From Thermoplasmata archaeon (GTDB taxonomy: Archaea > Thermoplasmatota > Thermoplasmata > Lutacidiplasmatales > UBA184), in contig JAGWLG010000015.1 in NCBI GenBank assembly GCA_028864975.1, forward strand, positions 8,253-72,252: a stretch of 64,000 bases of DNA. Reading direction: 5' to 3'. The position numbers and the translations under genes were made by a program. Positions within the stretch are counted from its first letter, which is position 1. Every line of letters begins with the position of its first letter. The notes beneath the pieces are model-generated. The model saw only the letters and a program-made list of their open reading frames with translations, searched no databases and was not told the DNA's origin. Shown here one piece after another: positions 24,581 to 38,035 of the stretch.

Positions 24581-24731
24581 GTGCGACGAGTGACGGGGGC
24601 AAGCCGTCTAAGGAGTCCATGGAGGAGGGGATATAGGGGAGGCCCGTATCCATGCGTATAGCTGACCGCCCGGCGCCGACCCCGGACTCCCGCCTACAAG
24701 CCTGAAATACGGTCGGAGGCTGGAGCCTTCG

Positions 24732-24800
24732 ATGACCATTCCGAGCGGAACAGCCAAGGCTGCGCGCGCGGGCGGTCGGTATTTCTGGTCCTGGTGGTGA
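24732..24800 (+). CDS. Aromatic-amino-acid leader peptide MTIPSGTAKAARAGGRYFWSWW (22 aa), trpL-like
   Basis: ATG 24732 with GGAGG (24715-19) and GGAG (24722-25) upstream; ends TAT TTC TGG TCC TGG TGG TGA; 107 nt upstream of the aro/trp operon. Not in the ORF track (too short). Confidence 0.85.
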   Translation: MTIPSGTAKAARAGGRYFWSWW

Positions 24801-24907
24801 GCGGAGGCGCCGAACCGGCCTCCTCCTCAGCGTCCACCAAGACTTGATGAGCAGGACGGTCCGGTACCTCCCTCGCCTCTCCGGGAACGGAAGGAGAGAA
24901 GGAACGG
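24792..24907 (+). promoter_or_regulatory. Putative attenuator RNA with alternative hairpins and an SD-sequestering stem
   Basis: Helix A (16 bp): 24792-97/24834-39, 24798-801/24826-29, 24803-08/24818-23. Competing helix B (15 bp): 24814-29 with 24848-65. UCCG-GGAA-CGGA hairpin 24880-91, and CUCUCC 24877-82 complementary to GGAGAG 24893-98. No U-tract. Confidence 0.7.
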
Positions 24908-25666
24908 ATGAACGGCAAGGAGCTGCGCCTGCGTCGACTCTTCCCTAGCCCACGGGCCCGACTCTTTGCGGTCCCCTTGGACCACAGCTTGTCGGTCGGA
25001 CCCATCGAGGGGCTCCGCCAGTTGGAGCCTACGGCGCGATCGCTCCAGGAGGGCGGCGTGCGCTGCCTCATCGTTCACAAGGGGGGGGTTCGGACCATCG
25101 CCGCCTCGCTCATGCCCTCCACCCTCTTGGGGGTCCACCTCTCCGCCTCGACCTCCCTGGCCCAGGATACGGGGCGGAAGCGGATCGCAGGGACGGTCGC
25201 GGAAGCGGTCCGACTCGGCGCGGACCTGGTGAGCGTTCAGGTCAACTTTGGGGACCCGGCAGAGGGCGAGATGCTGGAGGACCTCGGGCACATGGCCGAG
25301 GAGTGCGAGGCGCTGGGGATGCCGCTCCTCTGCATGACCTACGTCAGATCGAAGGGCAAGGAGATCGAAGAGGCGGCGCTCGCCCACGCGTGCCGGGCCG
25401 CCGCGGACCTGGGGGCCGACGTCATCAAGACCAACTTCCCGAGCTCCCACGGGTTCCGCAGGCTCGTAGAGAGTACCCCCGTGCCCGTCCTCGTGGGGGG
25501 GGGGCCGAAGCTCGACCGGGAGGAGGACCTCCTCCAACTCGTCCGAGACGCGACCGAAGCGGGTGCGCGAGGCATCTGCATCGGGAGGAACCTGTTCCAA
25601 TCGTCGGACATTGTCGCGACCGCTCGCAAGGTCGCTTCGACGCTCGACGGGGTCGCCAAGGGCTGA
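24908..25666 (+). CDS. aroA': 2-amino-3,7-dideoxy-D-threo-hept-6-ulosonate (ADH) synthase, DhnA-type class I aldolase
   Basis: VPLDHSLSVGP, HKG, HLSAST, A.RLGAD.VS..VNFG, ADLGADVIKT, VLVGGG, IGRNLFQ; first gene before DHQ synthase II. Confidence 0.88.
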   Translation: MNGKELRLRRLFPSPRARLFAVPLDHSLSVGPIEGLRQLEPTARSLQEGGVRCLIVHKGGVRTIAASLMPSTLLGVHLSASTSLAQDTGRKRIAGTVAEAVRLGADLVSVQVNFGDPAEGEMLEDLGHMAEECEALGMPLLCMTYVRSKGKEIEEAALAHACRAAADLGADVIKTNFPSSHGFRRLVESTPVPVLVGGGPKLDREEDLLQLVRDATEAGARGICIGRNLFQSSDIVATARKVASTLDGVAKG

Positions 25667-25677
25667 GGGAGCAACGC

Positions 25678-26712
25678 ATGGACCGACAGAGGATCGTCCT
25701 GGAGCTCGAGGCGGGCGAGGCCGGCGAACGGCTTCGTGGGTACGCCGAACGACGCGGGTTCCACCGGTTCCTCCTTGCGGTCGGCGCAGCGAAGTCCACC
25801 CTGGTCGGACGTGAGGTCGTCCTGCGCAAAGGGACCGCTCTTCGATTCCCCGGTGGGGGAGGGGAAGGCGAGGTGCTCCGGGTGGCCCGCCCTGCGGACC
25901 TCGAAGGGGTGCTTCGGGCGCTTCAGGCCCGGCCCCTGGTCCTGGTCGAATTCGATCGCGAGCGGGTCATCCCTCTGGAGAATCTCATCGCCATGCGGCA
26001 GACCGCGGGGGAACACGCTCCGGGGGCCCTTTGGGTCCGCGCCCAACGTGCCGAGGAAGTGCCGGGCCTCCTAGGTGCCCTGGAGCATGGTTCGGACGGA
26101 GCGGTCGTGGCCGTCTCGGTGACGGAAGAGATCGACCGGCTCGAGGCCCACATCGATCGCCCCCGACTCGAGCTCTCCTGGAAGATCGCCCAGGTCGCAC
26201 GCGTGACGCCCGGGGGGATCGGGGAGCGCGTGGTGGTCGACACGACCAGTCTGCTTGCCGAGGACGAGGGGATGCTCGTGGGGAGCCAGGGTGCGTTCCT
26301 CCTCCTGGTGGCTTCCGAGGCGCAAGGGTCGCGCTACACGAGACCCCGACCGTTCCGCGTCAACGCGGGAGCGGTGCACTCCTACACGCTGCTCGCCGAT
26401 GGAACGACCCGCTACCTTAGCGAACTGGAGGCCGGGGACCGCGTGGTCGTGGCCCGGCCCCGAGGAGACGCGAGGAGCGTCCGCGTCGGTCGGCTCAAGA
26501 TCGAGCGTCGCCCCTTCACCCTGGTCGAGGTCAAGGTGGGCGCCCGTCGCTACACCCTCTTCCTCCAGGAGGCGGAGACGGTGCGCCTGACCACGCCCAA
26601 GGGTCCCAAGCCCGTCCCGGAGCTCTCGATACGCGACCGCTTGCTGGGGGTCGAACTTCCCGCCGCACGCCACTTTGGCATGGCCGTGCACGAGACGATC
26701 CTGGAGCGCTAG
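25678..26712 (+). CDS. aroB': 3-dehydroquinate synthase II
   Basis: VIPLENLIA, LEHGSDG, G.GERVVVDT, EGMLVGS, RPFRVNAGAVHSY, TRYLSEL, VGRLKIERRP, LQEAETVRL, RHFGM...E.I.E; ATG 25678 with GAGG upstream. Confidence 0.93.
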   Translation: MDRQRIVLELEAGEAGERLRGYAERRGFHRFLLAVGAAKSTLVGREVVLRKGTALRFPGGGGEGEVLRVARPADLEGVLRALQARPLVLVEFDRERVIPLENLIAMRQTAGEHAPGALWVRAQRAEEVPGLLGALEHGSDGAVVAVSVTEEIDRLEAHIDRPRLELSWKIAQVARVTPGGIGERVVVDTTSLLAEDEGMLVGSQGAFLLLVASEAQGSRYTRPRPFRVNAGAVHSYTLLADGTTRYLSELEAGDRVVVARPRGDARSVRVGRLKIERRPFTLVEVKVGARRYTLFLQEAETVRLTTPKGPKPVPELSIRDRLLGVELPAARHFGMAVHETILER

Positions 26713-26715
26713 GAG

Positions 26716-28308
26716 ATGGGAGCGCGGGACCACGCGATCGACCCCGAGGTCCTCGCCCCCCGGCCCGGACATCCGCTCCTCGTGGCGACCCTCCCTGGCC
26801 GGAAGGCGGAGGACCTTCGAACCGAAGTGCAGCAAGCTGCCGAGGCTGGCGCCGACCTGGTCGAGTTCCGCCTGGATCGGTTGTCGCGGGGAGAGGTGGG
26901 GAGGCTCGAGAGGGTGCATGAGCTGCCGCTCCTGCACCCTTGGGTCCCCGCGATCGCCACGCTGCGCTCGAAGGCCGAAGGGGGAGAAGGCCCGGACGAC
27001 CTCCCCTCGCGCCGTAAGCTCGTCCTGGAGGCCCTCGACTCGCTTCCGTTCAGTTTCGTCGACCTCGAGGTCGCGCGCGATCTGCCGATGCGGGAGGAGC
27101 TCCGGAGCGCGGAAGGCCGCCGGCTCGGGGTCGTGGGCTCGGCCCACCTGCCCGCCGGGACCCCTACGGAGAAGGCGGTCCGGACCCTTCGTGCGGCGAT
27201 GCAGGGGAACGAGGTGGCCAAGGTCGTTCTCCCGGCTCCCGCGGGCCAGGTGGTCCGAGAGATCCTCCCGGCCCTGGAAAGTTTCCGAGGCTCTCCCTAT
27301 GTTTGTCACACGACCGGGGGTGCCGGGTCGCTGCTCCGTGTCCTCGCGCCACGCCTCGGGATGGCCTGGGTCTACTGCCGCCTACCGGGCGACCGCGGGG
27401 TGGCGGAGGTCGAACGCTCTCAGGTCCCCCTCGATCGGATGCGGCGCTTCATCAACTCCGGTCCGGAGGCCCCCTGGATGGCGGTCGTCGGGAACCCTAT
27501 CGGCCACACTCTCTCCCCCGACCTTCAGGCCTCCTTCCTGAAAGCGACCCATACCGAGGGCATCTACGTCGCGCTCGAGCTCACGTCCGAGGAGGAGTTC
27601 ATGACCGTCCTCCCGGCCCTCCGACGCTACGGGCTGCGGGGGGTGAACGCGACCCGTCCGTTCAAGCGGGCCGCGTATCAGCTAGCCAAGGTCCGTAGCG
27701 AACACGCCAGCGCTAGCGCGGCGGTGAACACGCTCGTCGCGGACCCTGCCGATCCTACGGGGTTCCGTGGGCACAACACGGACGTCTCCGCCCTGCTTCG
27801 CTGGTGGGGAGAGCTCGAGAAGGCGGGGACCCCGCTGGACCGGGTCCTGGTGGTGGGGACCGGGGGGGCCGCGCGCGCGGCGGTGCTCGCGAGCGTCCTT
27901 CACGGAGCCCAGGTCTTCGTCCTGGGCCGCCGCCCCGAGCGGGTCCAGGAGCTGGTCCATGACTTCCCTCCCGAGACGGTGCACGCGATCCCGCCGGGGT
28001 CCCTGCGAGAGTTCCCGCTCGTCGTCCACGCCACCCCCGTGGGCCAGGAGGGGGAGGAAGGGGGGGTCCTCGAGGTCCCCCTACAACGTGCTCTCGGAAG
28101 CGGAAGCCTCTTGGTCGACCTCGTGTACCGCCCTCGAGCGTCCACCGTGCAAGACCTGGTGAAGGCCCCTGGCGCCCGCTACGTCGACGGGATGCGGATG
28201 CTCGTTTACCAGGCTGCCGAAACCTTCCGTCTTTTCACCGGGACCCAGGTCCCCGACCGTCTGGTCGAGGAGTGGGTAGCCCCCGCTGCCGAGGGGGTGG
28301 CGGCATGA
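26716..28308 (+). CDS. aroDE: Bifunctional type I 3-dehydroquinate dehydratase / shikimate dehydrogenase
   Basis: N-terminal half: ADLVEFRLD, GSAH, VAKVV (Schiff-base Lys). C-terminal half: GNPIGHTLSP, NATRPFK, AVNT, GHNTD, GTGGAARA, DLVY, GMRMLVYQA. Confidence 0.9.
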   Translation: MGARDHAIDPEVLAPRPGHPLLVATLPGRKAEDLRTEVQQAAEAGADLVEFRLDRLSRGEVGRLERVHELPLLHPWVPAIATLRSKAEGGEGPDDLPSRRKLVLEALDSLPFSFVDLEVARDLPMREELRSAEGRRLGVVGSAHLPAGTPTEKAVRTLRAAMQGNEVAKVVLPAPAGQVVREILPALESFRGSPYVCHTTGGAGSLLRVLAPRLGMAWVYCRLPGDRGVAEVERSQVPLDRMRRFINSGPEAPWMAVVGNPIGHTLSPDLQASFLKATHTEGIYVALELTSEEEFMTVLPALRRYGLRGVNATRPFKRAAYQLAKVRSEHASASAAVNTLVADPADPTGFRGHNTDVSALLRWWGELEKAGTPLDRVLVVGTGGAARAAVLASVLHGAQVFVLGRRPERVQELVHDFPPETVHAIPPGSLREFPLVVHATPVGQEGEEGGVLEVPLQRALGSGSLLVDLVYRPRASTVQDLVKAPGARYVDGMRMLVYQAAETFRLFTGTQVPDRLVEEWVAPAAEGVAA

Positions 28309-29201
28309 GCGCCGCAGGTCCGGTGACGATGGGGCCGACGCTTCGTGACGGCGCCTGGGGCGCCATCTCCTTCCTGAACGCGATCCCCCAGGGGATCGGC
28401 TGTGCCGCCGCGATCTCCCTTCCCGTCACGGTCGAGGTCCAGTACGTCCCGGCTCCGCCGCAGAGCAAGCCCTGGCTCGACACCACCGAGGGGGAGGCGA
28501 CCCCGCTCCTGCGCTGGACCCTGGACAAGGTCTACGAGAGCGTTCCCGTCCCTCCCATCTACAAGTTCCATGTGGCGGTGAGGTCGGGGGTTCCCCCCCA
28601 AAAGGGCCTCAAGAGCTCCTCGGCGGTCTCCGTCGCCCTCGCGCGGGCGCTGCGTCGGGTCCTAGGCCAGAGCCCGACCCCTGCGGAAGTCGCCACGCTC
28701 TCCGCCAAGGCGGCCCTGGCGGCGGGGGTCTCGGTCACCGGCGCCTTCGACGACGCGCTCGCGTGCGCCATGGGCGGCGTGGTGGTCGCTGACGTCCGGG
28801 CGCACTGGCAGATGCTCTCCACCGAGGTCCCTTCGGGACTTCAGGCCCTCCTCTGGATACCGGAGACCACCCGCCCCGACCTTGCGAAGCGGAGCTCCGA
28901 GCTGAGGGCGCCCGACATGAACGCCAAGGAGGCGGTCCGCCTCGCGCTCCGGGGCGACTATCTCAAGGCGATGAAGTACAACTCGCTCGTCGTGGAGCGG
29001 GCGTTGGGTTACGATTACGCCAAGTTACGCGAGGCCGGGCTCACCAAGGGAGCGCTGTCGGCCGGGGTCACCGGGAACGGTCCGGCGGTGGCCTTCGTCT
29101 GCCCCCGGGAGCTGACCCCGCAGGTGGCCTCCGCCCTACCATGGCAGGGCGCGAAGCTGCTCACGGCGGAGTTCGTGCGCCCCGGGGTGGTGCCCGCGTG
29201 A
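28305..29201 (+). CDS. aroK: Archaeal shikimate kinase (GHMP family)
   Basis: GAISFLNAIP.GIG.A, P..KGLKSSSA, GVSVTGAFDDA, GVTGNGPA; ATGA overlap. Confidence 0.92.
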   Translation: MSAAGPVTMGPTLRDGAWGAISFLNAIPQGIGCAAAISLPVTVEVQYVPAPPQSKPWLDTTEGEATPLLRWTLDKVYESVPVPPIYKFHVAVRSGVPPQKGLKSSSAVSVALARALRRVLGQSPTPAEVATLSAKAALAAGVSVTGAFDDALACAMGGVVVADVRAHWQMLSTEVPSGLQALLWIPETTRPDLAKRSSELRAPDMNAKEAVRLALRGDYLKAMKYNSLVVERALGYDYAKLREAGLTKGALSAGVTGNGPAVAFVCPRELTPQVASALPWQGAKLLTAEFVRPGVVPA

Positions 29202-30652
29202 TGGTGCCTGCCGAACGTCAACGACCCGCAAGGACCGCCACTTCGCCGGACCCCGAAGCGGCTCTTCTCAGGTTGAATGAGGGTGCGGGCCTGCCGCCGC
29301 TTCCAGGACGGGTCGTGGTCACCCCGGGCACCGCCCGCGGGACGCTGACCGCTCCACCTTCCAAGAGCTACACCCACCGCGCGCTCGTCGTCGCCGCGCT
29401 CGCCGAGGGACCCACGAGGGTGATCGGGGGGCTCCGGAGCGAGGACACGCTGGCCAGCCTTCGGGCGGTCATCAGGTTGGGTGGGCAGCTGCGGGCAGCC
29501 CCCCCTGAGGCGCCTCCGGGAGGGGAAAGCGTCCTTCCTCCGCTCGCGCTCGACCCTCTCCCCCTGGGCCCGAGTCATGGAGGGGTGGCGGAGATCGACA
29601 CCGCCGAGTCCGGGACCACCCTGCGGCTCTTTAGCGCCGTCGCCGCGCTCCTCCCTCGTACCTCCCGCTTCTCCGGGAGTCCTTCTCTCGCCCGGCGCCC
29701 TCTGGGTGGGCTCCTCCAAGCCCTTGCTTGTCTGGGGGCCAGCTTCGATGGCCCTCCTCCAGGTCGGTCCCTACCCTTCTCGGTCCGCGGGCCGCTCCAC
29801 GGGGGGAGCGTCTCGGTCTCCGGGAGCGAAAGTAGCCAGTTCACTTCCGCGCTGCTCATCGCGCTCCCTTGCCTTGCGGAGGGCTCCGAGCTCCAGGTCG
29901 CAGGTGCGAGGGTGAGCCTTCCGTACGTGGAGGCAACGCTCGAGGTCCTGCGACAGCAAGGAGTGCACATCGAGAGCGCGCCCTCCAACCGCTACGTCAT
30001 CCCGGGCGGTCAGCGCTACCGGGGAGGCCACCTCACGGTCACGGGCGACGCCTCCTCCGCCGCGTACTTCCTCGCCTTGGGCGCCATCCAAGGTGGGCCC
30101 ATCACGGTCAAAGGGGTTGACCTGCACGTCCCGCAGGCCGACCTGGCCCTGCTCCCTGTGCTCGAACGTGCAGGGGCACGCGTCCGTCGCGGCGAACGGG
30201 AGCTCACCGTGGAGCGCCGCGGGGGAAGGCTCTCGCCCTTCGAGGTCGACCTGACGGCCTCGCCCGATCTTGCCCCCCTTCTGGCCGTCGTGGCCGCCTT
30301 CGCCCAGGGGCGATCAAAGCTGCTCGGGGCTTCCCATCTCGAGGCCAAGGAGAGCGACCGTCGACAGGGCTCCTTGAGGCTGGCCCAGGCGCTGGGCGCG
30401 AGCGCACGAGCGACCGAGGAAGGTATCGAGGTCGAGGGCCCCGTTCAGGTGTGCTCGCTGGACCTGAGGGACCTCTCGGACCACCGGATGTTCATGAGCG
30501 CCGCGGTCGCCGCTGCCGCCCTCAAGGAGCCCTCGACGCTCGAAGACCCCCGGGTGGTGCGCAAGTCCTACCCGGGTTTCCTGGAGGACCTGGGGAGCCT
30601 GGGGATACAGGTCGAAGGCGCTCGGGGGGGAGCTCCTGGGAGGTCGACATGA
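29201..30652 (+). CDS. aroA: EPSP synthase (3-phosphoshikimate 1-carboxyvinyltransferase)
   Basis: PPSKSYTHR, ESGTTLR, SSQFTSALL, GDASSA.YF, PDL.P, KESDR, DHRM, KSYPGF. Start is ATG 29201 or GTG 29198. Confidence 0.95.
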   Translation: MVPAERQRPARTATSPDPEAALLRLNEGAGLPPLPGRVVVTPGTARGTLTAPPSKSYTHRALVVAALAEGPTRVIGGLRSEDTLASLRAVIRLGGQLRAAPPEAPPGGESVLPPLALDPLPLGPSHGGVAEIDTAESGTTLRLFSAVAALLPRTSRFSGSPSLARRPLGGLLQALACLGASFDGPPPGRSLPFSVRGPLHGGSVSVSGSESSQFTSALLIALPCLAEGSELQVAGARVSLPYVEATLEVLRQQGVHIESAPSNRYVIPGGQRYRGGHLTVTGDASSAAYFLALGAIQGGPITVKGVDLHVPQADLALLPVLERAGARVRRGERELTVERRGGRLSPFEVDLTASPDLAPLLAVVAAFAQGRSKLLGASHLEAKESDRRQGSLRLAQALGASARATEEGIEVEGPVQVCSLDLRDLSDHRMFMSAAVAAAALKEPSTLEDPRVVRKSYPGFLEDLGSLGIQVEGARGGAPGRST

Positions 30653-31737
30653 GGATGGCGATCGGGGAAGCGCTCCGTCTCACCCTCTTTGGCTCAAGCC
30701 ACGGTCCCGTCGTGGGTGCCGTGCTCGAGGGTCTCCCCGCGGGGACCCCTGTCGACCTTGAGGCGGTCCAGCGCGAGCTGGACCGTAGGCGCCCCATCGG
30801 TCGCGCGCTCGCGACCAAGCGGCGGGAAGAGGACCAGCTCCGAGTGGAATCCGGGCTCGTCAACGGACGCACCACGGGAGACCCGCTCGTCGGGGTGGTC
30901 GAGAACCGGGACGTCCGGCGAGGGCCATACCGAGAGCTCGAGGACGTCCCTCGACCCGGGCATGCGGACTTCCCCGCGAGGATGCGATACGGCGAGGCCT
31001 TCGACCTTTCCGGAGGGGGGATCTTCTCCGGCCGGATGACCGTGGGGCTGGTCTTTGGAGGGGCGGTCGCCCGAGGCCTCCTCTCCCCTCAGGGGATCGA
31101 TGTGCTCGCCTTCACCCGCTCCTTGGGAGGGGTCGACGCCTCGGCGGCCTCGCTCGAGCGACGGCTCCCTGAGCTTCGTGCCGACGTGCTGTCGCACGAG
31201 GTGGGGTGCCCGGACCTGTCCGCGTCCAAGCGGATGTCGGAGGCGATCGAGCGCGCACGGAAGGACGGCGACAGCGTCGGGGGTGTCATCGAGGTGCGGG
31301 CTGAGGGGCTGCCCGTCGGGGTGGGCGAGCCGTTCTTCGACTCGGTCGAGAGCACCCTCGCCCATGCGCTCTTCTCGGTCCCGGCGGTCAAGGGGGTCGA
31401 GTTCGGCGCGGGATTCACGGCCGCAAGGATGCGCGGGAGCGAGCACAACGACCCGTTCTTCGTGGAGGACGGACGGGTCCGTAGCCGCACCAACCACGCC
31501 GGAGGCATCCTGGGGGGGCTCACCACGGGAATGCCCCTGGTGGCGCGGGTCGTGGTCAAGCCCACCTCCTCGATCGCCAAGGAGCAGGAGTCCGTCTCGC
31601 TGAGCACGAAGTCCTCACGTAGGCTTGTGGTCAAGGGGCGGCACGACCCATGTATCGTCCCGCGTGCGGTCCCCGTGGTGGAGAACCTCACCGCGTTCGT
31701 GCTGGCGGACCTGATGGCCCGCGGGGGGTTCCTGTGA
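30649..31737 (+). CDS. aroC: Chorismate synthase
   Basis: FG.SHG, PRPGHAD, DSVGG, SVPAVKGVEFG, NHAGGILGG, KPTSSI, GRHDPC. Confidence 0.96.
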   Translation: MRMAIGEALRLTLFGSSHGPVVGAVLEGLPAGTPVDLEAVQRELDRRRPIGRALATKRREEDQLRVESGLVNGRTTGDPLVGVVENRDVRRGPYRELEDVPRPGHADFPARMRYGEAFDLSGGGIFSGRMTVGLVFGGAVARGLLSPQGIDVLAFTRSLGGVDASAASLERRLPELRADVLSHEVGCPDLSASKRMSEAIERARKDGDSVGGVIEVRAEGLPVGVGEPFFDSVESTLAHALFSVPAVKGVEFGAGFTAARMRGSEHNDPFFVEDGRVRSRTNHAGGILGGLTTGMPLVARVVVKPTSSIAKEQESVSLSTKSSRRLVVKGRHDPCIVPRAVPVVENLTAFVLADLMARGGFL

Positions 31738-32822
31738 GCGAAGCGCGCCGGAGGACGGTGCTCCTGGGCGCGAGCGGCTGGATCGGGCAGCACTTCGCGC
31801 GGTTGTTGGACGACCATCCGTACTTCGACTCCCCGATCCTGACCGGGGCGACGAGCGCGGGGAAGAGCCTGGGCGAGCTCTGGCAGCTGGCGGACCAGCC
31901 CGTGCCCCAGGGGCTCGCAGAATCGAAGATCGAGAGGTTGACCCCTGCGGAGATCGCGCGGAGGGGGGTCGAGGTCGCCTTCAGCGCCCTTCCTTCGGGG
32001 GAGGCCGGAGCCTTCGAGGCCGAGCTCGCCCGCCGGGGGGTCGCCGTCTTCTCCAACGCTTCCGCGCATCGGATGGACCCCCAGGTCCCCTTGGTCATCC
32101 CCGAGATCAACGGGGACCATCTCGACGCCATCGAACGGCAGCCGTGGGAAGGCAGCATCGTCACGAACTCGAACTGTTCTACGGCAGGCCTCGTGCTGGC
32201 CCTCGCTCCCCTGGTGCCCTTGCTCCGGCCCAAGGAGGTCTTCGTGGCGACCTACCAGGCCCTCTCCGGGGCAGGCTACCCTGGGGTCCCCTCCCTGTCG
32301 ATCGAGGACAACGTCCTTCCGTTCATCGCGGAGGAGGAGGAGAAGATGGAGCGTGAGACCGCGAAGATCCTGGGGGGCTTTCGGGGCGGACGTTTCCGTC
32401 CCCTCTCGCTTCCCGTGAGCGCGCACTGCGCTCGCGTAGGCTCCCGGGAGGGCCACCTCGAGGCCGTGACCCTCAAGGCCGGGACCCCTGCCAAGGCCTC
32501 GGAGATCGTTCGGGCTTGGGAGGACTTCCAACCCCTCTCCCCTCGAGCGCGTGGCGACCGTGAAACGCTCCCGACCGCCCCTGATCACCCCGTGGTCTAC
32601 CGGCGGGAGGTGGACCGTCCTCAGCCCATCCGCGACCGTTGGGCCGGGACCCCCGCGCGCGCACGGGGCATGGCCGTGAGCGTCGGCCGCCTCCGGGTCG
32701 ACCGTGAGCATGTCCGGTTCTTCACGCTCTCGCACAACGCGGTCCGAGGGGGAGCTGGTGGGAGCGTGCTCAATGCCGAGCTCGCCCTTCGGAAGGGGCT
32801 TCTCGGAGGGCGACGGAGATGA
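31734..32822 (+). CDS. asd: Aspartate-semialdehyde dehydrogenase (archaeal type)
   Basis: LGASGWIGQ, FSALP, SNASAHRM...PLVIPEIN, TNSNCST (catalytic Cys), YQALSGAG, EEEKME.ET.KIL, GHLE, HNAVRGGAG; GTGA overlap. Confidence 0.95.
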   Translation: MSEARRRTVLLGASGWIGQHFARLLDDHPYFDSPILTGATSAGKSLGELWQLADQPVPQGLAESKIERLTPAEIARRGVEVAFSALPSGEAGAFEAELARRGVAVFSNASAHRMDPQVPLVIPEINGDHLDAIERQPWEGSIVTNSNCSTAGLVLALAPLVPLLRPKEVFVATYQALSGAGYPGVPSLSIEDNVLPFIAEEEEKMERETAKILGGFRGGRFRPLSLPVSAHCARVGSREGHLEAVTLKAGTPAKASEIVRAWEDFQPLSPRARGDRETLPTAPDHPVVYRREVDRPQPIRDRWAGTPARARGMAVSVGRLRVDREHVRFFTLSHNAVRGGAGGSVLNAELALRKGLLGGRRR

Positions 32823-34204
32823 CCACGGAAGCGCTTTGCGTCGTCAAGTACGGAGGGGCCGCCCTCGGTTCGGAGGAGAGCCTCCGGGACGTGATCCGTG
32901 AACTGCGAGCTCGCAAAGGCCCCATCGTAACGGTCGTTTCCGCACGGGAAGGGGTCACGGACCTGCTCAAGGCGGCGACCGCCGACCCCGCGAGCCGCGC
33001 TCGGCACGAAGAGGTCCTTCGCAAGCTCACCGCGCTCCATGCGGGGGGACCCCGAGAGGTTACGCTCGCGCTGCGCGCGCTCGAACGGCAGCTCACCCGT
33101 CTGCGGAGCGCGATGCGTCAGCTGCCTCCCAGGGCCCGCCGCTACCCCTCCACCCGCGCGCCGGTCGTCCTTTCGGACGCTATCCTCGCGCAGGGAGAGC
33201 GCCTGGCGGCGCATTGGTTCGCCGACCGTCTCCGACATGGGCGGGTAGCGGCACGGGCCTTGGAAGCGGACCTGATCGGGCTCTCGACGGACGACCACCA
33301 CGGCGAGGCGATCGTCCTGCTCGACCGGTCGGAGCTCCCGGTCCGCCGCGCCGTGACGCCCCTGCTGAGGCGGGGCCAGGTGCCGGTGGTCACCGGGTTC
33401 CTGGGCCGATCTCCCTCCGGGAAGGTCGCGACGCTCGGCCGAGGAGGGTCGGACTACTCGGCGACGTGCCTCGGGTACCTTCTCGGGGCCTCCCGCGTGG
33501 AGCTGGTCAAGAAGGACGTCTCGATCCTTACAGCGGACCCCCGCATCGTCCCGGCCGCCCGGCCTCTCTCGCGCCTCTCCTACGAGGAGGCGGAGGAGCT
33601 GGCGCAGTTTGGCGCCAAGGTCCTCCACCCGCTCACCGTCGAGCCCGCCCGCGCGCGTGGCGTCGAGGTCGTGATCCGCTCCCTCGAGGACCCGACCAGG
33701 ACCACGACCATCGGACCCGCCCTTCCGGGGGAAGGCATCCGGGCCTTGACGCTCCTTTCGCCCACGGCGATGCTCCTGCTCCGCGTTCCGGGGGGGCGCC
33801 AGCGGAGGGGGGTGATCGCCGAGGTGAGCCGCACGCTCGCCGCGGCGGAGGTGAACGTCATCACGATGTTCACCTCCTCGGCCCTCCTGATCGTGCTCGT
33901 TGAGATGGCCTCGGGCCGCAAGGCCCGCAGGGCCTTGGACCCGTTCGCTCGGGGGGACGGGGCCTCGCTGGAAGGGCCGCTGGAGGCCGCCCTGGTGACC
34001 GCGATCGGGGAGGGGGTGCTCGCGGACCTCGGAGGGCTTCCGGGGGACGTGGCCTCCCGGGCGCTCGGGGTCTCGGCGACCTCCCGGACCCTCTCCTTCG
34101 CCGTGCCCATGGCCTCGGGTCGCGAATCGCTCGTGAGCCTCCACCGTGCCCTGGTCGAGCTTCCCCGAGCGGTCACGCTCGAGGGCACCGTCCGGGGCAC
34201 CTGA
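32819..34204 (+). CDS. ask: Aspartate kinase with C-terminal ACT-like region
   Basis: VVKYGG, VVSA..GVTD, GER, VPVVTGF, TLGRGGSDYSA, ADPRIVP, SYEEA.ELA.FGAKVLHP. Confidence 0.93.
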   Translation: MTTEALCVVKYGGAALGSEESLRDVIRELRARKGPIVTVVSAREGVTDLLKAATADPASRARHEEVLRKLTALHAGGPREVTLALRALERQLTRLRSAMRQLPPRARRYPSTRAPVVLSDAILAQGERLAAHWFADRLRHGRVAARALEADLIGLSTDDHHGEAIVLLDRSELPVRRAVTPLLRRGQVPVVTGFLGRSPSGKVATLGRGGSDYSATCLGYLLGASRVELVKKDVSILTADPRIVPAARPLSRLSYEEAEELAQFGAKVLHPLTVEPARARGVEVVIRSLEDPTRTTTIGPALPGEGIRALTLLSPTAMLLLRVPGGRQRRGVIAEVSRTLAAAEVNVITMFTSSALLIVLVEMASGRKARRALDPFARGDGASLEGPLEAALVTAIGEGVLADLGGLPGDVASRALGVSATSRTLSFAVPMASGRESLVSLHRALVELPRAVTLEGTVRGT

Positions 34205-34219
34205 AAGGGGGAGCATGCG

Positions 34220-35506
34220 ATGCCGGCACCCACCCCCCGAGCCGGCCCCCACCGCGACCCGTGGTGGAACTTCGTTCGTCGGAGCGCGGAGGACCCCGCG
34301 AGCGCCTTCTACTTCGAGCGGGGGGCCTCCCCCGGTCGGAGCGGACGCTACTCGTTCTTCGGGTTCGGCCCGTCCGAGCGAGAGGAATGGTCCGAACCTC
34401 GGGACGTGTCGGCCTCGCGCCTCCGCGTCCGGGGGAACGACCCACATCGCGCGGACGGAAGCTGGGTCGGGTTCGTCGGGTTCGACGCCGTAGGGCTTTT
34501 CGAACCTCTGCTCGGGCCCTCGACCCCCCGAGGCTCACCCTTCCCGGTCGCCCTGTTCGACCGGTACCCGCATGTCGAGCACGCCCACCATCTTGGGGCC
34601 CCCGAAAGGGGGGCCGCGCCCGGTCTTCCCCCGAGCCCCGAAGTTGGTGAGGTCGAGGACTCCACAACGCGCGACCGCTTCGAGCGCTCGGTGGAGCATC
34701 TCCGCGAGGCGATCTACGACGGCGAGGCCTTCCAGGTCGTCCTCGCGCACCGGCGGTCCCGGCGCTTCAGGGGGAGCCTGCTCCCGGTGGTCGACCGCCT
34801 GCGTCGCGAGGAGCACTTCGCCTTCCTGTACTATCTCCGCATCGTGGACGGGACCTCGGCAGGAGGAACGCCCATCGAGATCGCGGGGGCGTCGCCCGAG
34901 TCCGTAGTCGAGATCCGGGACGGGACGGTCGCGGTCAACCCGATCGCCGGGACCCGCCCCCTCCCCGCCCCCACGCGGGGACCCGCGGCCCGCCTTCCGT
35001 TGGACAAGGACCCCAAGGAGCTCGCGGAGCACCGGATGCTCGTCGATCTCGCCCGCAACGATATCGGACGGGTCTCCCAGGTGGGGAGCGTCCACCTCTC
35101 TCGACGTGAGACCCGCGTGCCTTACGCACGTCTGGAGCACCTCGTCAGCCGGGTCGTCGGCCGTCTGAGCAACGGCGCGAGCGCGATCGACGCGCTGGTC
35201 GCGACCTTCCCGGCGGGGACGGTGAGCGGGGCGCCCAAGATCCGTGCCACCGAGCTTTTGCGCAGGGAGGAGCGGTCCTGGCGCGGGACGTACGGGGGGA
35301 CGGTCGGGATCGTGACCCCCGGCGGGGAGGCCGATTTCGCGCTCGCGATCCGCTCGGCCGCCGCGGCCCGGGGCCGGGTCTACACGCAGGCCGGAGCGGG
35401 GATCGTCCACCTCTCGAAACCCGCCCAGGAATGGGAGGAGACCCTCGCCAAGCTGGCGACCGTCGAGCGGGCCCTCGAGGGAAAGATACGGAGGGTCCGG
35501 CGTTGA
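34220..35506 (+). CDS. trpE: Anthranilate synthase component I (N-terminally compact)
   Basis: GEAFQVVL, GASPE, PIAGTRP, KELAEHRMLVDLARND, HLVS, FPAGTVSGAPKIRA, YGG.VG, QAGAGIV..S.P..E..ET..K; trp operon context. Confidence 0.92.
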   Translation: MPAPTPRAGPHRDPWWNFVRRSAEDPASAFYFERGASPGRSGRYSFFGFGPSEREEWSEPRDVSASRLRVRGNDPHRADGSWVGFVGFDAVGLFEPLLGPSTPRGSPFPVALFDRYPHVEHAHHLGAPERGAAPGLPPSPEVGEVEDSTTRDRFERSVEHLREAIYDGEAFQVVLAHRRSRRFRGSLLPVVDRLRREEHFAFLYYLRIVDGTSAGGTPIEIAGASPESVVEIRDGTVAVNPIAGTRPLPAPTRGPAARLPLDKDPKELAEHRMLVDLARNDIGRVSQVGSVHLSRRETRVPYARLEHLVSRVVGRLSNGASAIDALVATFPAGTVSGAPKIRATELLRREERSWRGTYGGTVGIVTPGGEADFALAIRSAAAARGRVYTQAGAGIVHLSKPAQEWEETLAKLATVERALEGKIRRVRR

Positions 35507-36090
35507 AGCTCGTGCTCATCGACCATCAGGATTCCTTCGTCTACAACCTCGCCCAGGCCCTCGGTCGGCTTGGGGCCGAGGTCGTCACGCTGCGCTCGAG
35601 CCTTCCGCTGCGAGCGGTCCTGCGCGAGGACCCGGACCTCCTCGTCCTCTCCCCGGGGCCGGGCCATCCTTCGGACCCCCGAACGATGGGAGTGACCCCT
35701 CGACTGCTTTCCCGGGGAGGGCTGGCGCGCGAGCTCCCCACGCTGGGGGTCTGTCTGGGACACCAGGCGATCGGTGCGGCGTTCGGAGGGACGGTGCACC
35801 GAGGCCCCTACCCCTGCCACGGAGAGACCTCGCGGGTCCTGCATCACCGAGAAGGGCTCTACGAAGGGGTCCCCAGCCCCTTCTCGGCGGCCCGGTACCA
35901 CTCTCTGGTCGTGGACCGCCACGACCTCCCCGCCGAGCTCGAGGAAACGAGCTGGGAGGCGGGTGGAGTACTGATGGGCCTGCGCCACCGGACGCTTCCC
36001 ATCGAGGGCGTTCAGTTCCACCCCGAGTCCTATCTTACGCGGTACGGCGATAGGCTCCTCGGGAACTTCCTGAAGAGGGCCCGCCGATGA
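35503..36090 (+). CDS. trpG: Anthranilate synthase component II (glutamine amidotransferase)
   Basis: LIDHQDSFVYNL, LSPGPG.P, LGVCLGHQ, RYHSL, GVQFHPES; TTG start overlapping the trpE stop. Confidence 0.95.
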   Translation: MKLVLIDHQDSFVYNLAQALGRLGAEVVTLRSSLPLRAVLREDPDLLVLSPGPGHPSDPRTMGVTPRLLSRGGLARELPTLGVCLGHQAIGAAFGGTVHRGPYPCHGETSRVLHHREGLYEGVPSPFSAARYHSLVVDRHDLPAELEETSWEAGGVLMGLRHRTLPIEGVQFHPESYLTRYGDRLLGNFLKRARR

Positions 36091-37160
36091 ACGTGGATCC
36101 CTCGACAGGACCCGCGGCCTTGCAGCACCTGGTCCAGGGGGAGGACCTCGGACCTGAGGAGGCCCGAGAGGTCGCCGAGGGTCTGTTGACGGGGGCCTTC
36201 CCCCCGGAGGTCGTGGCGTCCCTCCTCACGGCCCTGGCTGCGAAAGGAGAGAGCCCGGAGGAGCTCTACGCCTTCTCCTCGACCCTGCGGGCGCGAGCTC
36301 GACCCTTCCCGGGACCCGCGGAGGCCGGGGCCGTGGACCTGTGCGGGACGGGGGGGGCGAAGACGCCGACGTTCAACATCTCGACGGTCAGCGCCTTCGT
36401 CCTCGCGGGGGCGGGCGTCCCGGTCGCCAAACATGGGAACGTCTCCGCCCGAAGGCCGTGCGGGTCCTCGGACGTACTGAGCGCCCTAGGGCTTCCGGTC
36501 CTTCGCTCCGTGGCCTTCGCCGAGGCCTCCTGGAGGAAGGAACGGCTCTGCTTCCTCCATGCTCCGCTCTTCCATGCCGCGACCCGGAGCGTGGCGCCGG
36601 TCCGCAAGGCGCTTGGGCTCCGGACCATCTTCAATCAGCTGGGGCCTCTCACGAACCCTGCAGGGGTCTCGACGCAGCTCGTAGGGTGTTTCTCGAGGGA
36701 GTATGCCCGGCGGGTCACCCCCGTGCTCCACCGGTTGGGCGTGCACCGGTCCCTCGCGGTCCACGGGAAGGGAGGGATGGACGAGCTCAGCTCCAAGGGG
36801 ACGGACTGGCTCCTCCGATCGGTCGAAGCGAGCGGTGAGGGCGGGGGCGCGACCGAGGTCTCGATCGACCCTTCCACGCTCCTGTCGCCCGAGGAGCGCC
36901 GTGGCGACCTTCGTCCCCGGTCGCCTGGGGAGGCGGCCGAGCTCACGCGGGCGGTCCTCTCGGGAGAAGGGGACGGAGCGGTCCGCGGGGCCGTCCTGCT
37001 GACCGCAGGGGCCGCGATATGGCTTCACGGCTCCGCCCCCGAGCTGCCGAGTGGCGTGGCGTTGGCGAGGTCGGCCCTTCAGGACGGCCGGGCGCTCGAC
37101 AAGCTCCAGAAGCTCCAAGCGCTCGCCCGCTCCCAGGACTGGCCGGAGGGGTCCCCTTGA
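36087..37160 (+). CDS. trpD: Anthranilate phosphoribosyltransferase
   Basis: DLCGTGG, TFNIST, VAKHGN, GSSDVL, RTIFN.LGPLTNP, GMDEL. Confidence 0.96.
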   Translation: MNVDPSTGPAALQHLVQGEDLGPEEAREVAEGLLTGAFPPEVVASLLTALAAKGESPEELYAFSSTLRARARPFPGPAEAGAVDLCGTGGAKTPTFNISTVSAFVLAGAGVPVAKHGNVSARRPCGSSDVLSALGLPVLRSVAFAEASWRKERLCFLHAPLFHAATRSVAPVRKALGLRTIFNQLGPLTNPAGVSTQLVGCFSREYARRVTPVLHRLGVHRSLAVHGKGGMDELSSKGTDWLLRSVEASGEGGGATEVSIDPSTLLSPEERRGDLRPRSPGEAAELTRAVLSGEGDGAVRGAVLLTAGAAIWLHGSAPELPSGVALARSALQDGRALDKLQKLQALARSQDWPEGSP

Positions 37161-38035
37161 GCCCACGGTCTCCCACGAACCCGGCACGGGCCGACGCGAA
37201 GTCCGCTCCAGGGAACTTCCTGGACACCATGGTGAAGACGGTGGAGGAGGAACTGCGCGCGGGGCTCTACGCACGGCGCCCACCCCGAGGGGACGAGCCC
37301 CCGCCGGGACGTCCCCGGTTCGCGGAGGCCCTTCATCGGGTCTCGGAGGGGCCGGCCTTGATGGTGGAGCTCAAGCATGCCTCCCCCGGGCGCTCGCAGC
37401 CGCGGCTTCCTGCGCTCTCTCCGGAGCGTTTCGTTCGGGTGTGCGAGGACGCGGGGATCAGCGCGCTCTCGGTGATCCCTCAGCCCTACGAGTTCGGAGG
37501 CAACCTGGAGGAGTTCGGGAAGGTCGCCCACCTATCCCGTCTGCCGCTCCTTTTCAAGGACTTCATCATCGATGAGGCCCAGATCCAGGCCGCGAAAGTG
37601 CACGGAGCTTCGGCGGTCCTGCTCCTCGCCCGGCTCGCGCGCGCCCAGTCCCTGCACGGCAACCTGGAAGGGCTGGTGAAGGCGGCCCATGCTCGAGGGC
37701 TGGAGACCCTGGTGGAAGTGCATGCGAAGGCCGAGGTACCCCTAGCGCTCAGCTCCGGGACGGACGCCCTTGGGGTCAACGCCCGAGACCTCGGAACGCT
37801 CCACCTGGACCCTCGCTCCGCGCTGCCGGTGCTGCGCGAGCTGCGCAAGGACCCCCGGCCGCTCGTGGCCATGAGCGGCGTGGAAGGACCGCGCGAGGTG
37901 GCCCTCTACGGCGCCTCGGGGGCCGACGCGATCCTCATCGGGACGGCCTTCGCGCGTTCCCACGACCCGCTCGCGTTCCTGCGGGGCCTGCGTGCGGAGC
38001 CCCCCCGCAACGAGGCCGCGGTGGGGGACCGTTGA
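37157..38035 (+). CDS. trpC: Indole-3-glycerol phosphate synthase
   Basis: ELKHASP, LSV, KDFII...QI..A...GA.AVLL, LVEVH, GVNARDL, GADAILIG; TTG 37157 overlaps the trpD stop. Confidence 0.92.
   Translation: MSPRSPTNPARADAKSAPGNFLDTMVKTVEEELRAGLYARRPPRGDEPPPGRPRFAEALHRVSEGPALMVELKHASPGRSQPRLPALSPERFVRVCEDAGISALSVIPQPYEFGGNLEEFGKVAHLSRLPLLFKDFIIDEAQIQAAKVHGASAVLLLARLARAQSLHGNLEGLVKAAHARGLETLVEVHAKAEVPLALSSGTDALGVNARDLGTLHLDPRSALPVLRELRKDPRPLVAMSGVEGPREVALYGASGADAILIGTAFARSHDPLAFLRGLRAEPPRNEAAVGDR

What the first reader, a model, noticed from the sequence alone, without database searches (positions are those of the whole stretch)
24792..24910. Mutually exclusive leader hairpins ending in an anti-SD stem: translational rather than terminator-type attenuation
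Seen: helix A (16 bp) pairs the Trp codons, stop codon and GGAGGC (24792-24808) with 24818-24839. Helix B (15 bp) pairs the same middle segment (24814-24829) with 24848-24865, so A and B exclude each other. A pyrimidine tract (24867-24882) can pair with the purine-rich SD region of aroA' (24893-24903), capped by UCCG-GGAA-CGGA. Segment 24849-24855 can alternatively pair weakly with that tract. No U-tract follows. Inference (ermC-like logic): a ribosome at the stop masks GGAGGC, B forms and the SD is sequestered (OFF); a ribosome stalled at Y/F/W leaves GGAGGC free, A forms and the SD is released (ON). Blocked translation could then silence the coupled operon through archaeal polarity. The pairings were found by hand and the ON/OFF assignment is uncertain.
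Basis: partly seen in the sequence, partly recalled or inferred. Interest (0 to 1): 0.85.

Follow-up and report, generated by a model that had tools for sequence, protein, structure and literature searches.

The report
Archaeal tryptophan leader-peptide translational attenuator
A short Trp-rich upstream reading frame, followed by a conserved RNA switch that can hide the first gene's ribosome-binding site, precedes a 15-gene aromatic/tryptophan operon in a family of uncultured soil archaea; I found no report of this bacterial-style, ribosome-sensed control in Archaea.

Summary
In P1 the G-rich strand starting 2 nt after the leader stop (24796-24812) pairs with the pyrimidine tract (24862-77) that can instead pair with the aroA' Shine-Dalgarno (SD) site.

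The element is conserved:
- A probably leaderless reading frame of about 23 codons, ending Trp-x-Trp-UGA, occurs with the same RNA once per genome.
- It is present in about 100-118 of 150-186 genomes of one Thermoplasmata family (relatives include 'UBA184').
- It lies before an aro-asd-ask-trp superoperon, and in one genome with a split operon it lies before trpE.

P1 and the local hairpin both covary.

Folding 72 homologues with a ribosome mask gives these SD-open probabilities:

| Ribosome A-site position | SD open |
|---|---|
| First Trp codon | 0.57 |
| Stop codon | 0.25 |
| Window, at Tyr/Phe/Trp | 0.64-0.73 |
| Window, at stop | 0.21 |

SD-occlusion attenuation with this ON/OFF direction is therefore supported. 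The helix roles are not. Enforcing helix A closes the SD (0.22). The ON state is helix B extended by P1.

No RNA or experimental data exist. Kinetics, and a possible free-Trp arrest at the stop codon, remain open.

The parts
24698..24709 (+). Archaeal promoter-like element: an A at -34 (BRE side) and an AT-rich TATA-like box at -29..-23 relative to the leader AUG.
   Evidence: In 76 homologous leaders, position -34 is A in 66, and -29..-24 is W-A-A-W-W-R in otherwise GC-rich DNA. C-G at -2/-1 is nearly invariant. The fixed spacing of about 26 nt from box centre to AUG suggests a leaderless or 1-nt-leader transcript; this is inferred. Genome-wide, such boxes are enriched 26-36 nt before the ATG of long ORFs.
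24732..24800 (+). Leader reading frame (uORF) of 22 codons plus UGA (P0001). Its last six residues are Tyr-Phe-Trp-Ser-Trp-Trp.
   Evidence: Translation. Homologous frames of 21-24 codons (66 of 80 are exactly 23) end Trp-x-Trp-UGA in five genera.
24780..24797 (+). Regulatory codons: Tyr 24780-82, Phe 24783-85, Trp 24786-88, Trp 24792-94, Trp 24795-97.
   Evidence: Trp at -1 occurs in 80 of 80 leaders and Trp at -3 in 78 of 80. No other Trp occurs in the peptides.
24796..24812 (+). P1 5' strand, an SD mimic: GGUGAG-C-GGAGG-C-GCCG. It starts inside the last Trp codon and the stop codon.
   Evidence: MFE pair table. The homologous strand is gap-free and starts 2 nt after UGA in all 72 aligned leaders. 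Covariation with the 3' strand is shown.
24862..24877 (+). P1 3' strand: CGGU-A-CCUCC-CUCGCC. Its CCUCC... part is the anti-SD.
   Evidence: The duplex with the 5' strand is -30 to -50 kcal/mol in all 80 homologues.
24789..24794 (+). P0 5' strand (UCCUGG, codons -3/-2), pairing with 24881-24886 (CCGGGA).
   Evidence: This is seen in the window's own fold only.
24814..24860 (+).
   Evidence: In homologues the apical part varies in sequence but keeps a helix (P2, 75% paired, compensatory changes in 5 of 6 pairs).
24792..24839 (+).
   Evidence: -24 kcal/mol. The equivalent hairpin is 94% paired in 72 leaders. Alignment column 22 covaries with both its local partner (column 32) and its P1 partner (column 86) in the same three sequences. 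Enforcing A closes the SD.
24867..24903 (+). Sequestrator hairpin: pyrimidine tract 24867-24882 paired with the purine-rich SD region 24889-24903.
   Evidence: Cognate anti-SD:SD duplexes average -11.9 kcal/mol against -10.05 for non-cognate pairs, and 0 of 5000 permutations reach this.
24908..40682 (+). Regulated operon: aroA' (ADH synthase), aroB' (DHQS II), aroD-aroE, GHMP shikimate kinase, EPSP synthase, chorismate synthase, asd, aspartate kinase, trpE, G, D, C, F, B, A.
   Evidence: Pfam assignments. trpE lies 8-9 kb downstream of aroA' on the same strand in five other genomes from four genera.

Best explanation
This is a ribosome-mediated translational attenuator that senses tryptophan supply, and in this species probably Tyr and Phe supply too.

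Components:
- The transcript probably starts at or 1 nt before the AUG of a 22-23-codon leader frame whose last codons are Trp-x-Trp (here Tyr-Phe-Trp-Ser-Trp-Trp), followed by UGA.
- Two nucleotides after the stop codon lies an SD-like G-rich strand (segment 1).
- Segment 1 can pair locally with segment 2 to form helix A. Alternatively it pairs over about 60 nt with a CCUCC-containing strand (segment 3) to form P1, stacked on helix B.
- When segment 3 is not held in P1, it pairs with the aroA' SD (segment 4).

Mechanism:
- A ribosome starved of Trp-tRNA stalls with the first Trp codon in its A site. Its front edge then stops just short of P1 and weakens helix A. B plus P1 form, the anti-SD is held in P1, the SD is open, and the aro-trp operon is translated.
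- A ribosome that runs to the stop codon unwinds the GGAGG:CCUCC base of P1.
- If the ribosome has already left, helix A captures segment 1.
- In either of these two cases segment 3 pairs with the SD and translation of aroA' is blocked. Through translational coupling or polarity, the genes behind it would be blocked too.

Shown here: the parts, their conservation and covariation, their link to trp genes, and the direction of the thermodynamic effect.

Inferred: leaderless initiation, the ribosome footprint geometry (taken from bacteria), kinetic trapping, and the physiological response.
For: 1. The leader is real and tied to Trp synthesis.
- 15 of 23 same-family aroA' loci carry it.
- The motif is single-copy in 118 of 186 genomes of the order, all in one family, and the reversed-pattern control is about 0.
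- The covariance model finds it in 101 of 151 family genomes.
- The regulated operon ends in trpEGDCFBA, and this arrangement holds in four other genera.
- In G010 the aro operon has no leader, and the homologous leader sits directly before trpE-trpG.
- In genus g5, no leader was found in 8 genomes, and trpE was not found in the 5 of them searched.

2. P1 is 88% paired, against 51-65% when slid. It has GC<->AU and GC<->CG compensations, and 0 of 500 shuffles reach the observed covariation score.

3. The local hairpin is 94% paired, against 51-58% when slid. One column covaries with partners in both helices, which is the signature of a switch.

4. Single-sequence MFEs show both states. 11 of 15 give P1 with a free SD, and 4 of 15 give the local hairpin plus anti-SD:SD.

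5. Ribosome-mask folding of 72 leaders gives SD unpaired probabilities of 0.44 free, 0.59 and 0.57 at A-site -4 and -3, 0.38 at -1 and 0.25 at the stop. The Trp(-3) value exceeds the stop value by more than 0.1 in 51 leaders, and the reverse holds in 4.
- The window's own leader falls monotonically from 0.64-0.73 to 0.21.
- The trpE copy in G010 falls from 0.69 to 0.17, using a different sequence next to the start codon.

6. In the window the two states are separated by a direct-path barrier of about 38-41 kcal/mol. On a growing transcript, A forms first unless a ribosome covers its 5' strand.

7. The 16S rRNA 3' end is ...GAUCACCUCCU, so GGAGG-type SDs are meaningful here. Segment 3 mimics the rRNA tail.

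8. There is no U-tract and no Rfam family match.
Against: - There is no transcript or expression evidence. The transcription start, the translation of the leader and the response to Trp are all unverified.
- The anti-SD:SD hairpin alone is not better than shuffles (z -1.1). Its cognate advantage is only about 1.9 kcal/mol, and relatedness among the genomes inflates the permutation test.
- At equilibrium the free window RNA has an open SD (0.72). OFF therefore needs either ribosome occupancy at the stop codon or kinetic trapping in helix A, and neither was simulated properly.
- In the large genus g4 a ribosome at Trp(-3) would not cover the local hairpin, so the 'stalled ribosome prevents A' step fits g1 better than g4.
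- The invariant Trp at -1 is unexplained. A stall there is predicted to give a half-closed state (0.38).
- About 17 of 72 leaders show little effect, and 4 show the reverse.
- Footprint geometry was borrowed from bacterial ribosomes.
- SD dependence of initiation in this lineage is assumed.
Confidence: 0.62

Rival explanations
1. The RNA switch is the same, but the signal is free tryptophan sensed by the nascent peptide. The peptide ending Trp-x-Trp would slow aRF1-dependent release at UGA when Trp is abundant, as in TnaC or the fungal arginine attenuator peptide. The parked ribosome would keep the base of P1 open, so the SD would stay occluded.
For: - Trp at -1 and the UGA stop are invariant in every leader, including the 15 found without any stop-codon requirement.
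- The length is almost fixed at 23 codons (66 of 80).
- Small residues at -7/-6 and Gly-Arg about 8 residues from the end are semi-conserved, and Ala at -7 shows synonymous variation.
- At equilibrium, OFF exists only while a ribosome sits at the last codons or the stop codon. A long dwell there would make the switch work without kinetic trapping.
Against: - Outside the Trp codons the peptide varies greatly between genera.
- Codons -6, -4 and -2 are conserved at the third position. All 60 Leu codons at -2 are CTC, which points to RNA-level rather than peptide-level constraint.
- The Tyr and Phe codons added in the one species that has acquired pheA fit codon (tRNA) sensing better.
- No arrest motif of this kind is known for archaeal ribosomes; this rests on my own knowledge.
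Confidence: 0.15
2. The alternative helices control transcription rather than initiation. After the leader stop codon, the roughly 100 nt of untranslated RNA would be exposed to, or protected from, factor-dependent termination (FttA/aCPSF1-type polarity) or RNA polymerase pausing, depending on ribosome position.
For: - Classical amino-acid leaders act on transcription.
- Archaeal transcription and translation are coupled, and factor-dependent polarity exists; this rests on my own knowledge.
- The operon is tightly coupled, with 4-nt overlaps at 32819, 36087 and 38032.
Against: - The window and nearly all homologues have no oligo-U tract.
- The strand freed by the switch is specifically complementary to the SD or start region. 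This holds also in the trpE copy, where the sequence differs.
- Hairpins are not known to terminate archaeal RNA polymerase; this rests on my own knowledge.
Confidence: 0.1
3. The long hairpin is a stability, processing or protein-binding element. In that case the leader frame and hairpin are conserved together, but ribosome position does not set SD access.
For: - P1 is very stable and is the MFE in most homologues.
- The SD-occlusion effect is graded rather than all-or-none, and it is weak in about a quarter of leaders.
Against: - The spacing from the Trp codons through the stop codon to P1 is gap-free in 72 leaders.
- Both competing helices are conserved.
- Accessibility peaks exactly when the A site is on the first Trp codon.
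- The element moves with trpE.
Confidence: 0.06

Closest known systems
Escherichia coli trp operon leader (trpL) attenuator; Rfam Trp leader family
   Same: It has a short leader frame with Trp codons near its end. It has four RNA segments forming 1:2, 2:3 and 3:4 alternatives, with ribosome position choosing between them. It controls Trp biosynthesis genes.
   Different: The output hairpin here sequesters the SD and is not a terminator, because no U-tract follows it. Segment 1 also pairs directly with segment 3 (P1). The leader is probably leaderless, with an archaeal TATA promoter. No Rfam match was found. The host is an archaeon, and the operon also holds the whole shikimate route plus asd and ask.
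Mycobacterial polycysteine leaderless short ORFs (Cys-responsive translational attenuators; bioRxiv 10.1101/834739)
   Same: A leaderless short ORF is rich in the end-product's codons. [quoted passage not shown] Control acts on translation.
   Different: Those elements are bacterial and sense cysteine, and they are a simpler two-state duplex. Here a three-way competition (local hairpin, P1, anti-SD:SD) begins 2 nt after the stop codon, and the regulatory codons are the last codons of the frame.
ermC / cat leader peptides (drug-induced translational attenuation)
   Same: The position of the ribosome on a leader frame rearranges hairpins so that the downstream SD is freed.
   Different: In those systems the stall is caused by an antibiotic together with the nascent peptide, not by tRNA supply. 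They are bacterial resistance genes.
TnaC (E. coli) and the fungal arginine attenuator peptide
   Same: The frame is about 24 codons long, the stop-codon context is conserved, and an amino acid is the signal. In those systems the ribosome is held at the stop codon.
   Different: Those sense the free amino acid through the nascent chain, and their outputs are Rho access or blocked scanning. Here conserved peptide features beyond the Trp residues are weak, and there is a dedicated SD switch.
Actinobacterial LEU element (PMC1262725)
   Same: [quoted passage not shown]
   Different: In the LEU element the codon run itself pairs with the SD at the base of a pseudoknot. Here a separate anti-SD strand does so, and the codons lie just upstream of the switch.

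Membership tests
Classical leader-peptide transcription attenuator (trpL type) | A short translated leader frame with clustered codons for the pathway's end product. | tested here: met
   The frame has 22 codons ending Tyr-Phe-Trp-Ser-Trp-Trp. Trp-x-Trp is conserved in about 80 homologues. Translation itself was not tested.
Classical leader-peptide transcription attenuator (trpL type) | Mutually exclusive helices overlapping or abutting the regulatory codons. | tested here: met
   A, B/P1 and anti-SD:SD are all present. Both A-like and P1 helices are conserved.
Classical leader-peptide transcription attenuator (trpL type) | The output is an intrinsic terminator, a hairpin followed by a U-tract. 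| tested here: not met
   No T-run lies between 24801 and 24908. The terminator scan finds nothing there. Homologues also lack one.
Classical leader-peptide transcription attenuator (trpL type) | Match to the curated Rfam Trp-leader model. | tested here: not met
   No Rfam family reaches its gathering score anywhere in the window.
Translational attenuator (ermC / mycobacterial leaderless Cys sORF type) | The SD or start of the downstream gene can be sequestered by an upstream complementary strand. | tested here: met
   The hairpin 24867-82 with 24889-903 is -15.6 kcal/mol. Cognate pairs beat non-cognate pairs across 72 leaders. The same holds at trpE in G010.
Translational attenuator (ermC / mycobacterial leaderless Cys sORF type) | A ribosome stalled at the regulatory codons frees the SD, and a ribosome that passes them does not. 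| tested here: met
   This was tested by thermodynamic modelling only. Experimental stalling cannot be tested with these tools.
Translational attenuator (ermC / mycobacterial leaderless Cys sORF type) | The leader frame starts at the 5' end of the transcript (leaderless). | tested here: inconclusive
   A conserved TATA-like box is centred about 26 nt before the AUG, and C-G is conserved at -2/-1. Genome-wide enrichment of such boxes 26-36 nt before ATGs supports this. No RNA data exist. The window also has GGAGG 13-17 nt upstream, which could serve as an SD if the start site lies further upstream.
Ligand-sensing arrest peptide (TnaC / AAP type) | A peptide sequence conserved over the tunnel-spanning length. 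| tested here: inconclusive
   Only the Trp residues are invariant. Residues at -8..-6 are weakly conserved, and third-position conservation at -6, -4 and -2 points to RNA constraint.
Ligand-sensing arrest peptide (TnaC / AAP type) | Ligand-dependent block of release at the stop codon. | not testable with these tools
   This needs in vitro translation or toeprinting with archaeal ribosomes.

The most novel reading that the evidence does not exclude
The invariant ...Trp-x-Trp-UGA ending and the nearly fixed 23-codon length may mark a nascent-peptide arrest of aRF1-dependent termination that responds to free tryptophan. The paused terminating ribosome would hold the base of P1 open and so keep the SD occluded. 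If true, this would be an amino-acid-sensing arrest peptide on an archaeal ribosome, layered on a leader-peptide attenuator of a kind I found no report of in Archaea.
Probability: 0.13. Interest if true: 0.92.

Novelty: new variant of a known kind. Interest (0 to 1): 0.8.

Why it matters
Leader-peptide attenuation is a textbook bacterial mechanism. Six full-text searches found no report of an amino-acid-sensing leader peptide in Archaea, and I know of none.

This element is conserved in more than 100 species, covaries, and moves with the trp genes. If it works as modelled, three things follow:
- Archaea use ribosome position on a probably leaderless upstream frame to regulate biosynthesis.
- SD mimicry (SD mimic, anti-SD, SD) can replace a terminator as the output in a domain whose RNA polymerase does not use hairpin terminators.
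- One small sensor can govern the whole 15-gene route from aspartate semialdehyde to tryptophan.

It also gives a compact, testable system for studying coupling of transcription and translation in archaea. The covariance model built here can be used to annotate these genomes.

Tried and rejected
- RNA evidence. The look-up of sequencing runs listed no RNA holder. The only holders were DNA runs of mine-drainage and soil metagenomes. Read laying was therefore not used, and nothing can be said on expression.
- Rfam. No family matched in the window.
- RNAalifold on the first 15-sequence MAFFT alignment gave almost nothing, because the 3' strand was misaligned. The 72-sequence alignment resolved this.
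- Alignment-free cognate versus non-cognate test for P1. It was only weakly discriminating (-34.8 against -32.0 kcal/mol; shuffled -25.0) because the 5' strand is nearly invariant.
- UGA read-through coupling. In the window the next in-frame stop after the leader UGA overlaps the aroA' start (ATGA). This holds in only 1 of 72 leaders, and the frame relation is not conserved, so I rejected it as chance.
- Genome-wide scan of G000 for other leaderless frames with clustered regulatory codons. Besides this leader it found only the Phe-rich frame before pheA. Two other Trp-containing candidates lie before ORFs with no Pfam hit or in an ambiguous context and were dropped.
- The pheA leader showed no clear ribosome-dependent occlusion of its start region.
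- Bacterial hits of the global pattern scan (Streptomyces and others) have no leader frame and are chance matches.
It was rerun from the window file.
- Not run: complex prediction, structure prediction and the protein homology searches. They do not bear on an RNA switch.
Full report
**What is in the window.**
- Between a divergently transcribed response-regulator gene (24158-24580, minus strand) and a long plus-strand operon lies a 22-codon reading frame, 24732-24800 (P0001). It ends Tyr-Phe-Trp-Ser-Trp-Trp-UGA.
- The operon encodes the archaeal shikimate route: ADH synthase aroA' at 24908, DHQS-II, aroD-aroE, GHMP-type shikimate kinase, EPSP synthase and chorismate synthase. It continues with aspartate-semialdehyde dehydrogenase, aspartate kinase and trpE, G, D, C, F, B, A, ending at 40682.
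- An archaeal tRNA-splicing endonuclease follows the operon on the opposite strand.
- The genome's 16S rRNA ends ...GAUCACCUCCU.
- Relatives carrying the same element are named 'Thermoplasmata archaeon' MAGs, including UBA184, from soil, peat and mine drainage. UBA184 is discussed with the Lutacidiplasmatales/TMEG order in PMC9287336.

| Helix | Coordinates | Energy (kcal/mol) | z-score |
|---|---|---|---|
| A | 24792-24839 | -24.0 | -2.3 |
| B | 24814-24865 | -22.4 | -3.0 |
| Pyrimidine-tract:SD hairpin | 24866-24905 | -15.6 | -1.1 |

- A and B share 24814-24829, so they exclude each other. No U-tract follows.
- In that hairpin, helix B is extended at its base by P1: 24796-24812 (GGUGAG, GGAGG, GCCG) pairs with 24862-24877 (CGGU, CCUCC, CUCGCC). 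A further extension pairs 24789-94 with 24881-86.
- The pyrimidine tract therefore has two partners: the SD-like strand just after the leader stop codon, and the real SD.

**Conservation.**
- Upstream of aroA' in relatives, 15 of 23 same-family loci carry a 21-23-codon frame ending Trp-x-Trp-UGA at the same distance.
- A motif spanning the last Trp codon, the stop codon and the start of P1 occurs once per genome in 118 of 186 genomes of the order. All are in one family (117 of 179), and the reversed-pattern control is about zero.
- A covariance model built from 72 leaders finds the element in 101 of 151 family genomes. These counts include two unpublished genomes, G171 and G173. No sequence-level statement rests on them.
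- A global scan of species genomes returned true hits only from Thermoplasmata MAGs.
- Among 80 distinct leaders, 66 have exactly 23 codons. Trp at -1 is invariant, Trp at -3 is present in 78, and the stop codon is always UGA.
- Columns from the first Trp codon through the first 23 nt after the stop codon align without a single gap.
- Upstream, an A at -34, an AT-rich box at -29..-24 and C-G at -2/-1 are conserved. This spacing is that of an archaeal TATA box for a transcript starting at or 1 nt before the AUG. That reading is an inference. Similar boxes are enriched 26-36 nt before long-ORF ATGs genome-wide.

**Link to tryptophan.**
- In five genomes from four other genera, trpE lies 8-9 kb downstream of aroA' on the same strand, so the aro-trp superoperon is general.
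- In G010 (genus g3) the aro operon has no leader. A homologous 23-codon frame ending Trp-Gly-Trp-UGA, with the same RNA, sits directly before trpE-trpG. Three other g3 genomes have no leader at trpE.
- In genus g5, no leader was found in 8 genomes. In the 5 of them searched, trpE was not found at E <= 1e-40.
- G152 carries a decayed copy in which both Trp codons have become Gly codons and there is no start codon.
- Prephenate dehydratase was found in none of 15 other family genomes, while the control genomes were all positive. It is present in this genome, inserted between flanks syntenic with its congeners. It is preceded by its own short frame ending Phe-Phe-Pro-Tyr-Phe.
- This fits the fact that only this species' aro leader also holds Tyr and Phe codons.

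**Structure evidence.**
- On the 72-leader MAFFT alignment, P1 is 88% paired, against 51-65% when the 3' partner is slid. It has GC/AU/GU and GC/CG alternations, and 0 of 500 shuffles reach the covariation score.
- The local hairpin, the equivalent of helix A, is 94% paired, against 51-58% when slid.
- In three sequences a G-to-A change in the shared strand is compensated in both its local partner and its P1 partner.
- Single-sequence folds give P1 with a free SD in 11 of 15 leaders, and the local hairpin plus anti-SD:SD in 4 of 15.
- Cognate anti-SD:SD duplexes are about 1.9 kcal/mol better than non-cognate ones, and 0 of 5000 permutations reach this. The genomes are related, so this overstates significance.

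**Ribosome-position modelling.** I masked everything up to 9 nt beyond the first A-site nucleotide, a footprint taken from bacterial ribosomes.

| Ribosome A-site position | Window's own leader, SD unpaired |
|---|---|
| Tyr | 0.73 |
| First Trp | 0.64 |
| Later Trp codons | 0.38-0.25 |
| Stop | 0.21 |

- This result is similar for other mask lengths.
- Over 72 leaders the means are 0.44 (free RNA), 0.59 and 0.57 (A site at -4 and -3), 0.38 (-1) and 0.25 (stop). 51 leaders are more open at Trp(-3) than at the stop codon by more than 0.1, and 4 show the reverse.
- The trpE copy in G010 behaves the same way (0.69 against 0.17), using a different sequence next to its start codon.
- The geometry explains this. 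P1 begins 5 nt after the first base of the stop codon and 14 nt after the first base of Trp(-3). A ribosome reaching 9-12 nt ahead of its A site spares P1 at the first Trp codon and opens its GGAGG:CCUCC base at the stop codon.

**Which helix does what.**
- Enforcing helix A in the window gives a closed SD (0.22). Enforcing P1 gives an open SD (0.73). The A state is 6.5 kcal/mol less stable.
- The two states are separated by a direct-path barrier estimate of about 38-41 kcal/mol. This figure is a heuristic upper bound.
- On a growing transcript without a ribosome, A forms as soon as its 3' strand appears. With a ribosome at the Trp codons, A is truncated and B, then P1, take over.
- The element therefore maps onto the classical four-segment scheme: A is 1:2, B plus P1 is 2:3, and anti-SD:SD is 3:4. 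The 3:4 structure is a sequestrator, not a terminator.
The statement that 'A forms and the SD is released' does not.

**Open points.**
- No RNA data exist.
- In the large genus g4 a ribosome at Trp(-3) would not cover the local hairpin, so the kinetic route there is unclear.
- The invariant last Trp codon, the UGA stop and the fixed length are not explained by starvation sensing alone. They keep a free-Trp, arrest-at-stop variant alive.
- Against that variant, third-position conservation in the last codons (all 60 Leu codons at -2 are CTC) points to RNA-level constraint.
- Factor-dependent transcription polarity may add to, or replace, the translational effect.

**Comparison with known systems.**
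- The closest mechanistic relatives are the mycobacterial leaderless polycysteine short ORFs (bioRxiv 10.1101/834739), the ermC and cat leaders, and the E. coli trp leader.
- The element is not a member of the classical terminator-type family, because it has no U-tract and no Rfam match.
- Six full-text searches found no report of leader-peptide attenuation in Archaea.
- I rate it a new variant of a known kind, of high interest for archaeal gene regulation.

**Earlier scan notes.** Note e1-5722624 told me that the operon continues into the trp genes, which I then verified. Note e1-5722622 describes the same leader frame.

Noticed in passing
G000 contig C29, locus L181:1545-1601 (minus strand), before L181:494-1507 (minus strand): A second short frame of 18 codons ends Phe-Phe-Pro-Tyr-Phe. 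An AT-rich box lies about 26 nt before its ATG. It sits 37 nt upstream of a prephenate dehydratase + chorismate mutase gene. The gene and its leader are an insertion relative to three congeners, and PDT was not found in 15 other family genomes. No clear SD-occlusion switch was seen.
   Followed up: partly
L226:141-212 (leader frame) and L226:312-1592 (trpE), genome G010: In a genus where aroA' has no leader, a homologous 23-codon frame ending Trp-Gly-Trp-UGA, with the P1 hairpin, precedes trpE-trpG. The freed strand (CCCCGUG) is complementary to the bases next to the trpE start codon.
   Followed up: yes
L227 (G152:C94), minus strand, covariance-model hit at 1501-1618: This is a decayed copy of the leader. 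Both Trp codons read GGG, there is no start codon, and the upstream gene abuts the element. The hairpin region is partly kept.
   Followed up: no
window 24909-24911: The next in-frame stop after the leader UGA overlaps the aroA' start codon (ATGA). Read-through of UGA would therefore end exactly at the start of aroA'. This is true for only 1 of 72 leaders, so it is probably chance.
   Followed up: yes
window 24758-24787: The terminator scan flags a 6-bp stem plus a T-rich stretch inside the leader frame, at the Tyr/Phe codons (TATTTC). It is not conserved in other genera, whose leaders lack these codons.
   Followed up: partly
loci L013, L020, L021-L023, L227 (upstream of the aro leader or of aroA'): In genera g4 and g5 the gene immediately upstream encodes a conserved protein C-terminus of unknown family. 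In g5 it runs almost into aroA', leaving no room for a leader.
   Followed up: no
window 24715-24725: GGAGG and GGAG lie 7-17 nt before the leader AUG in this species. Homologues keep G-G-(U/G)-U at -14..-11. This could be a promoter-proximal element or an SD, depending on where the transcript really starts.
   Followed up: partly
window 24158-24580 (minus strand): A stand-alone response-regulator receiver gene is transcribed divergently from the leader promoter, about 150 nt away.
   Followed up: no
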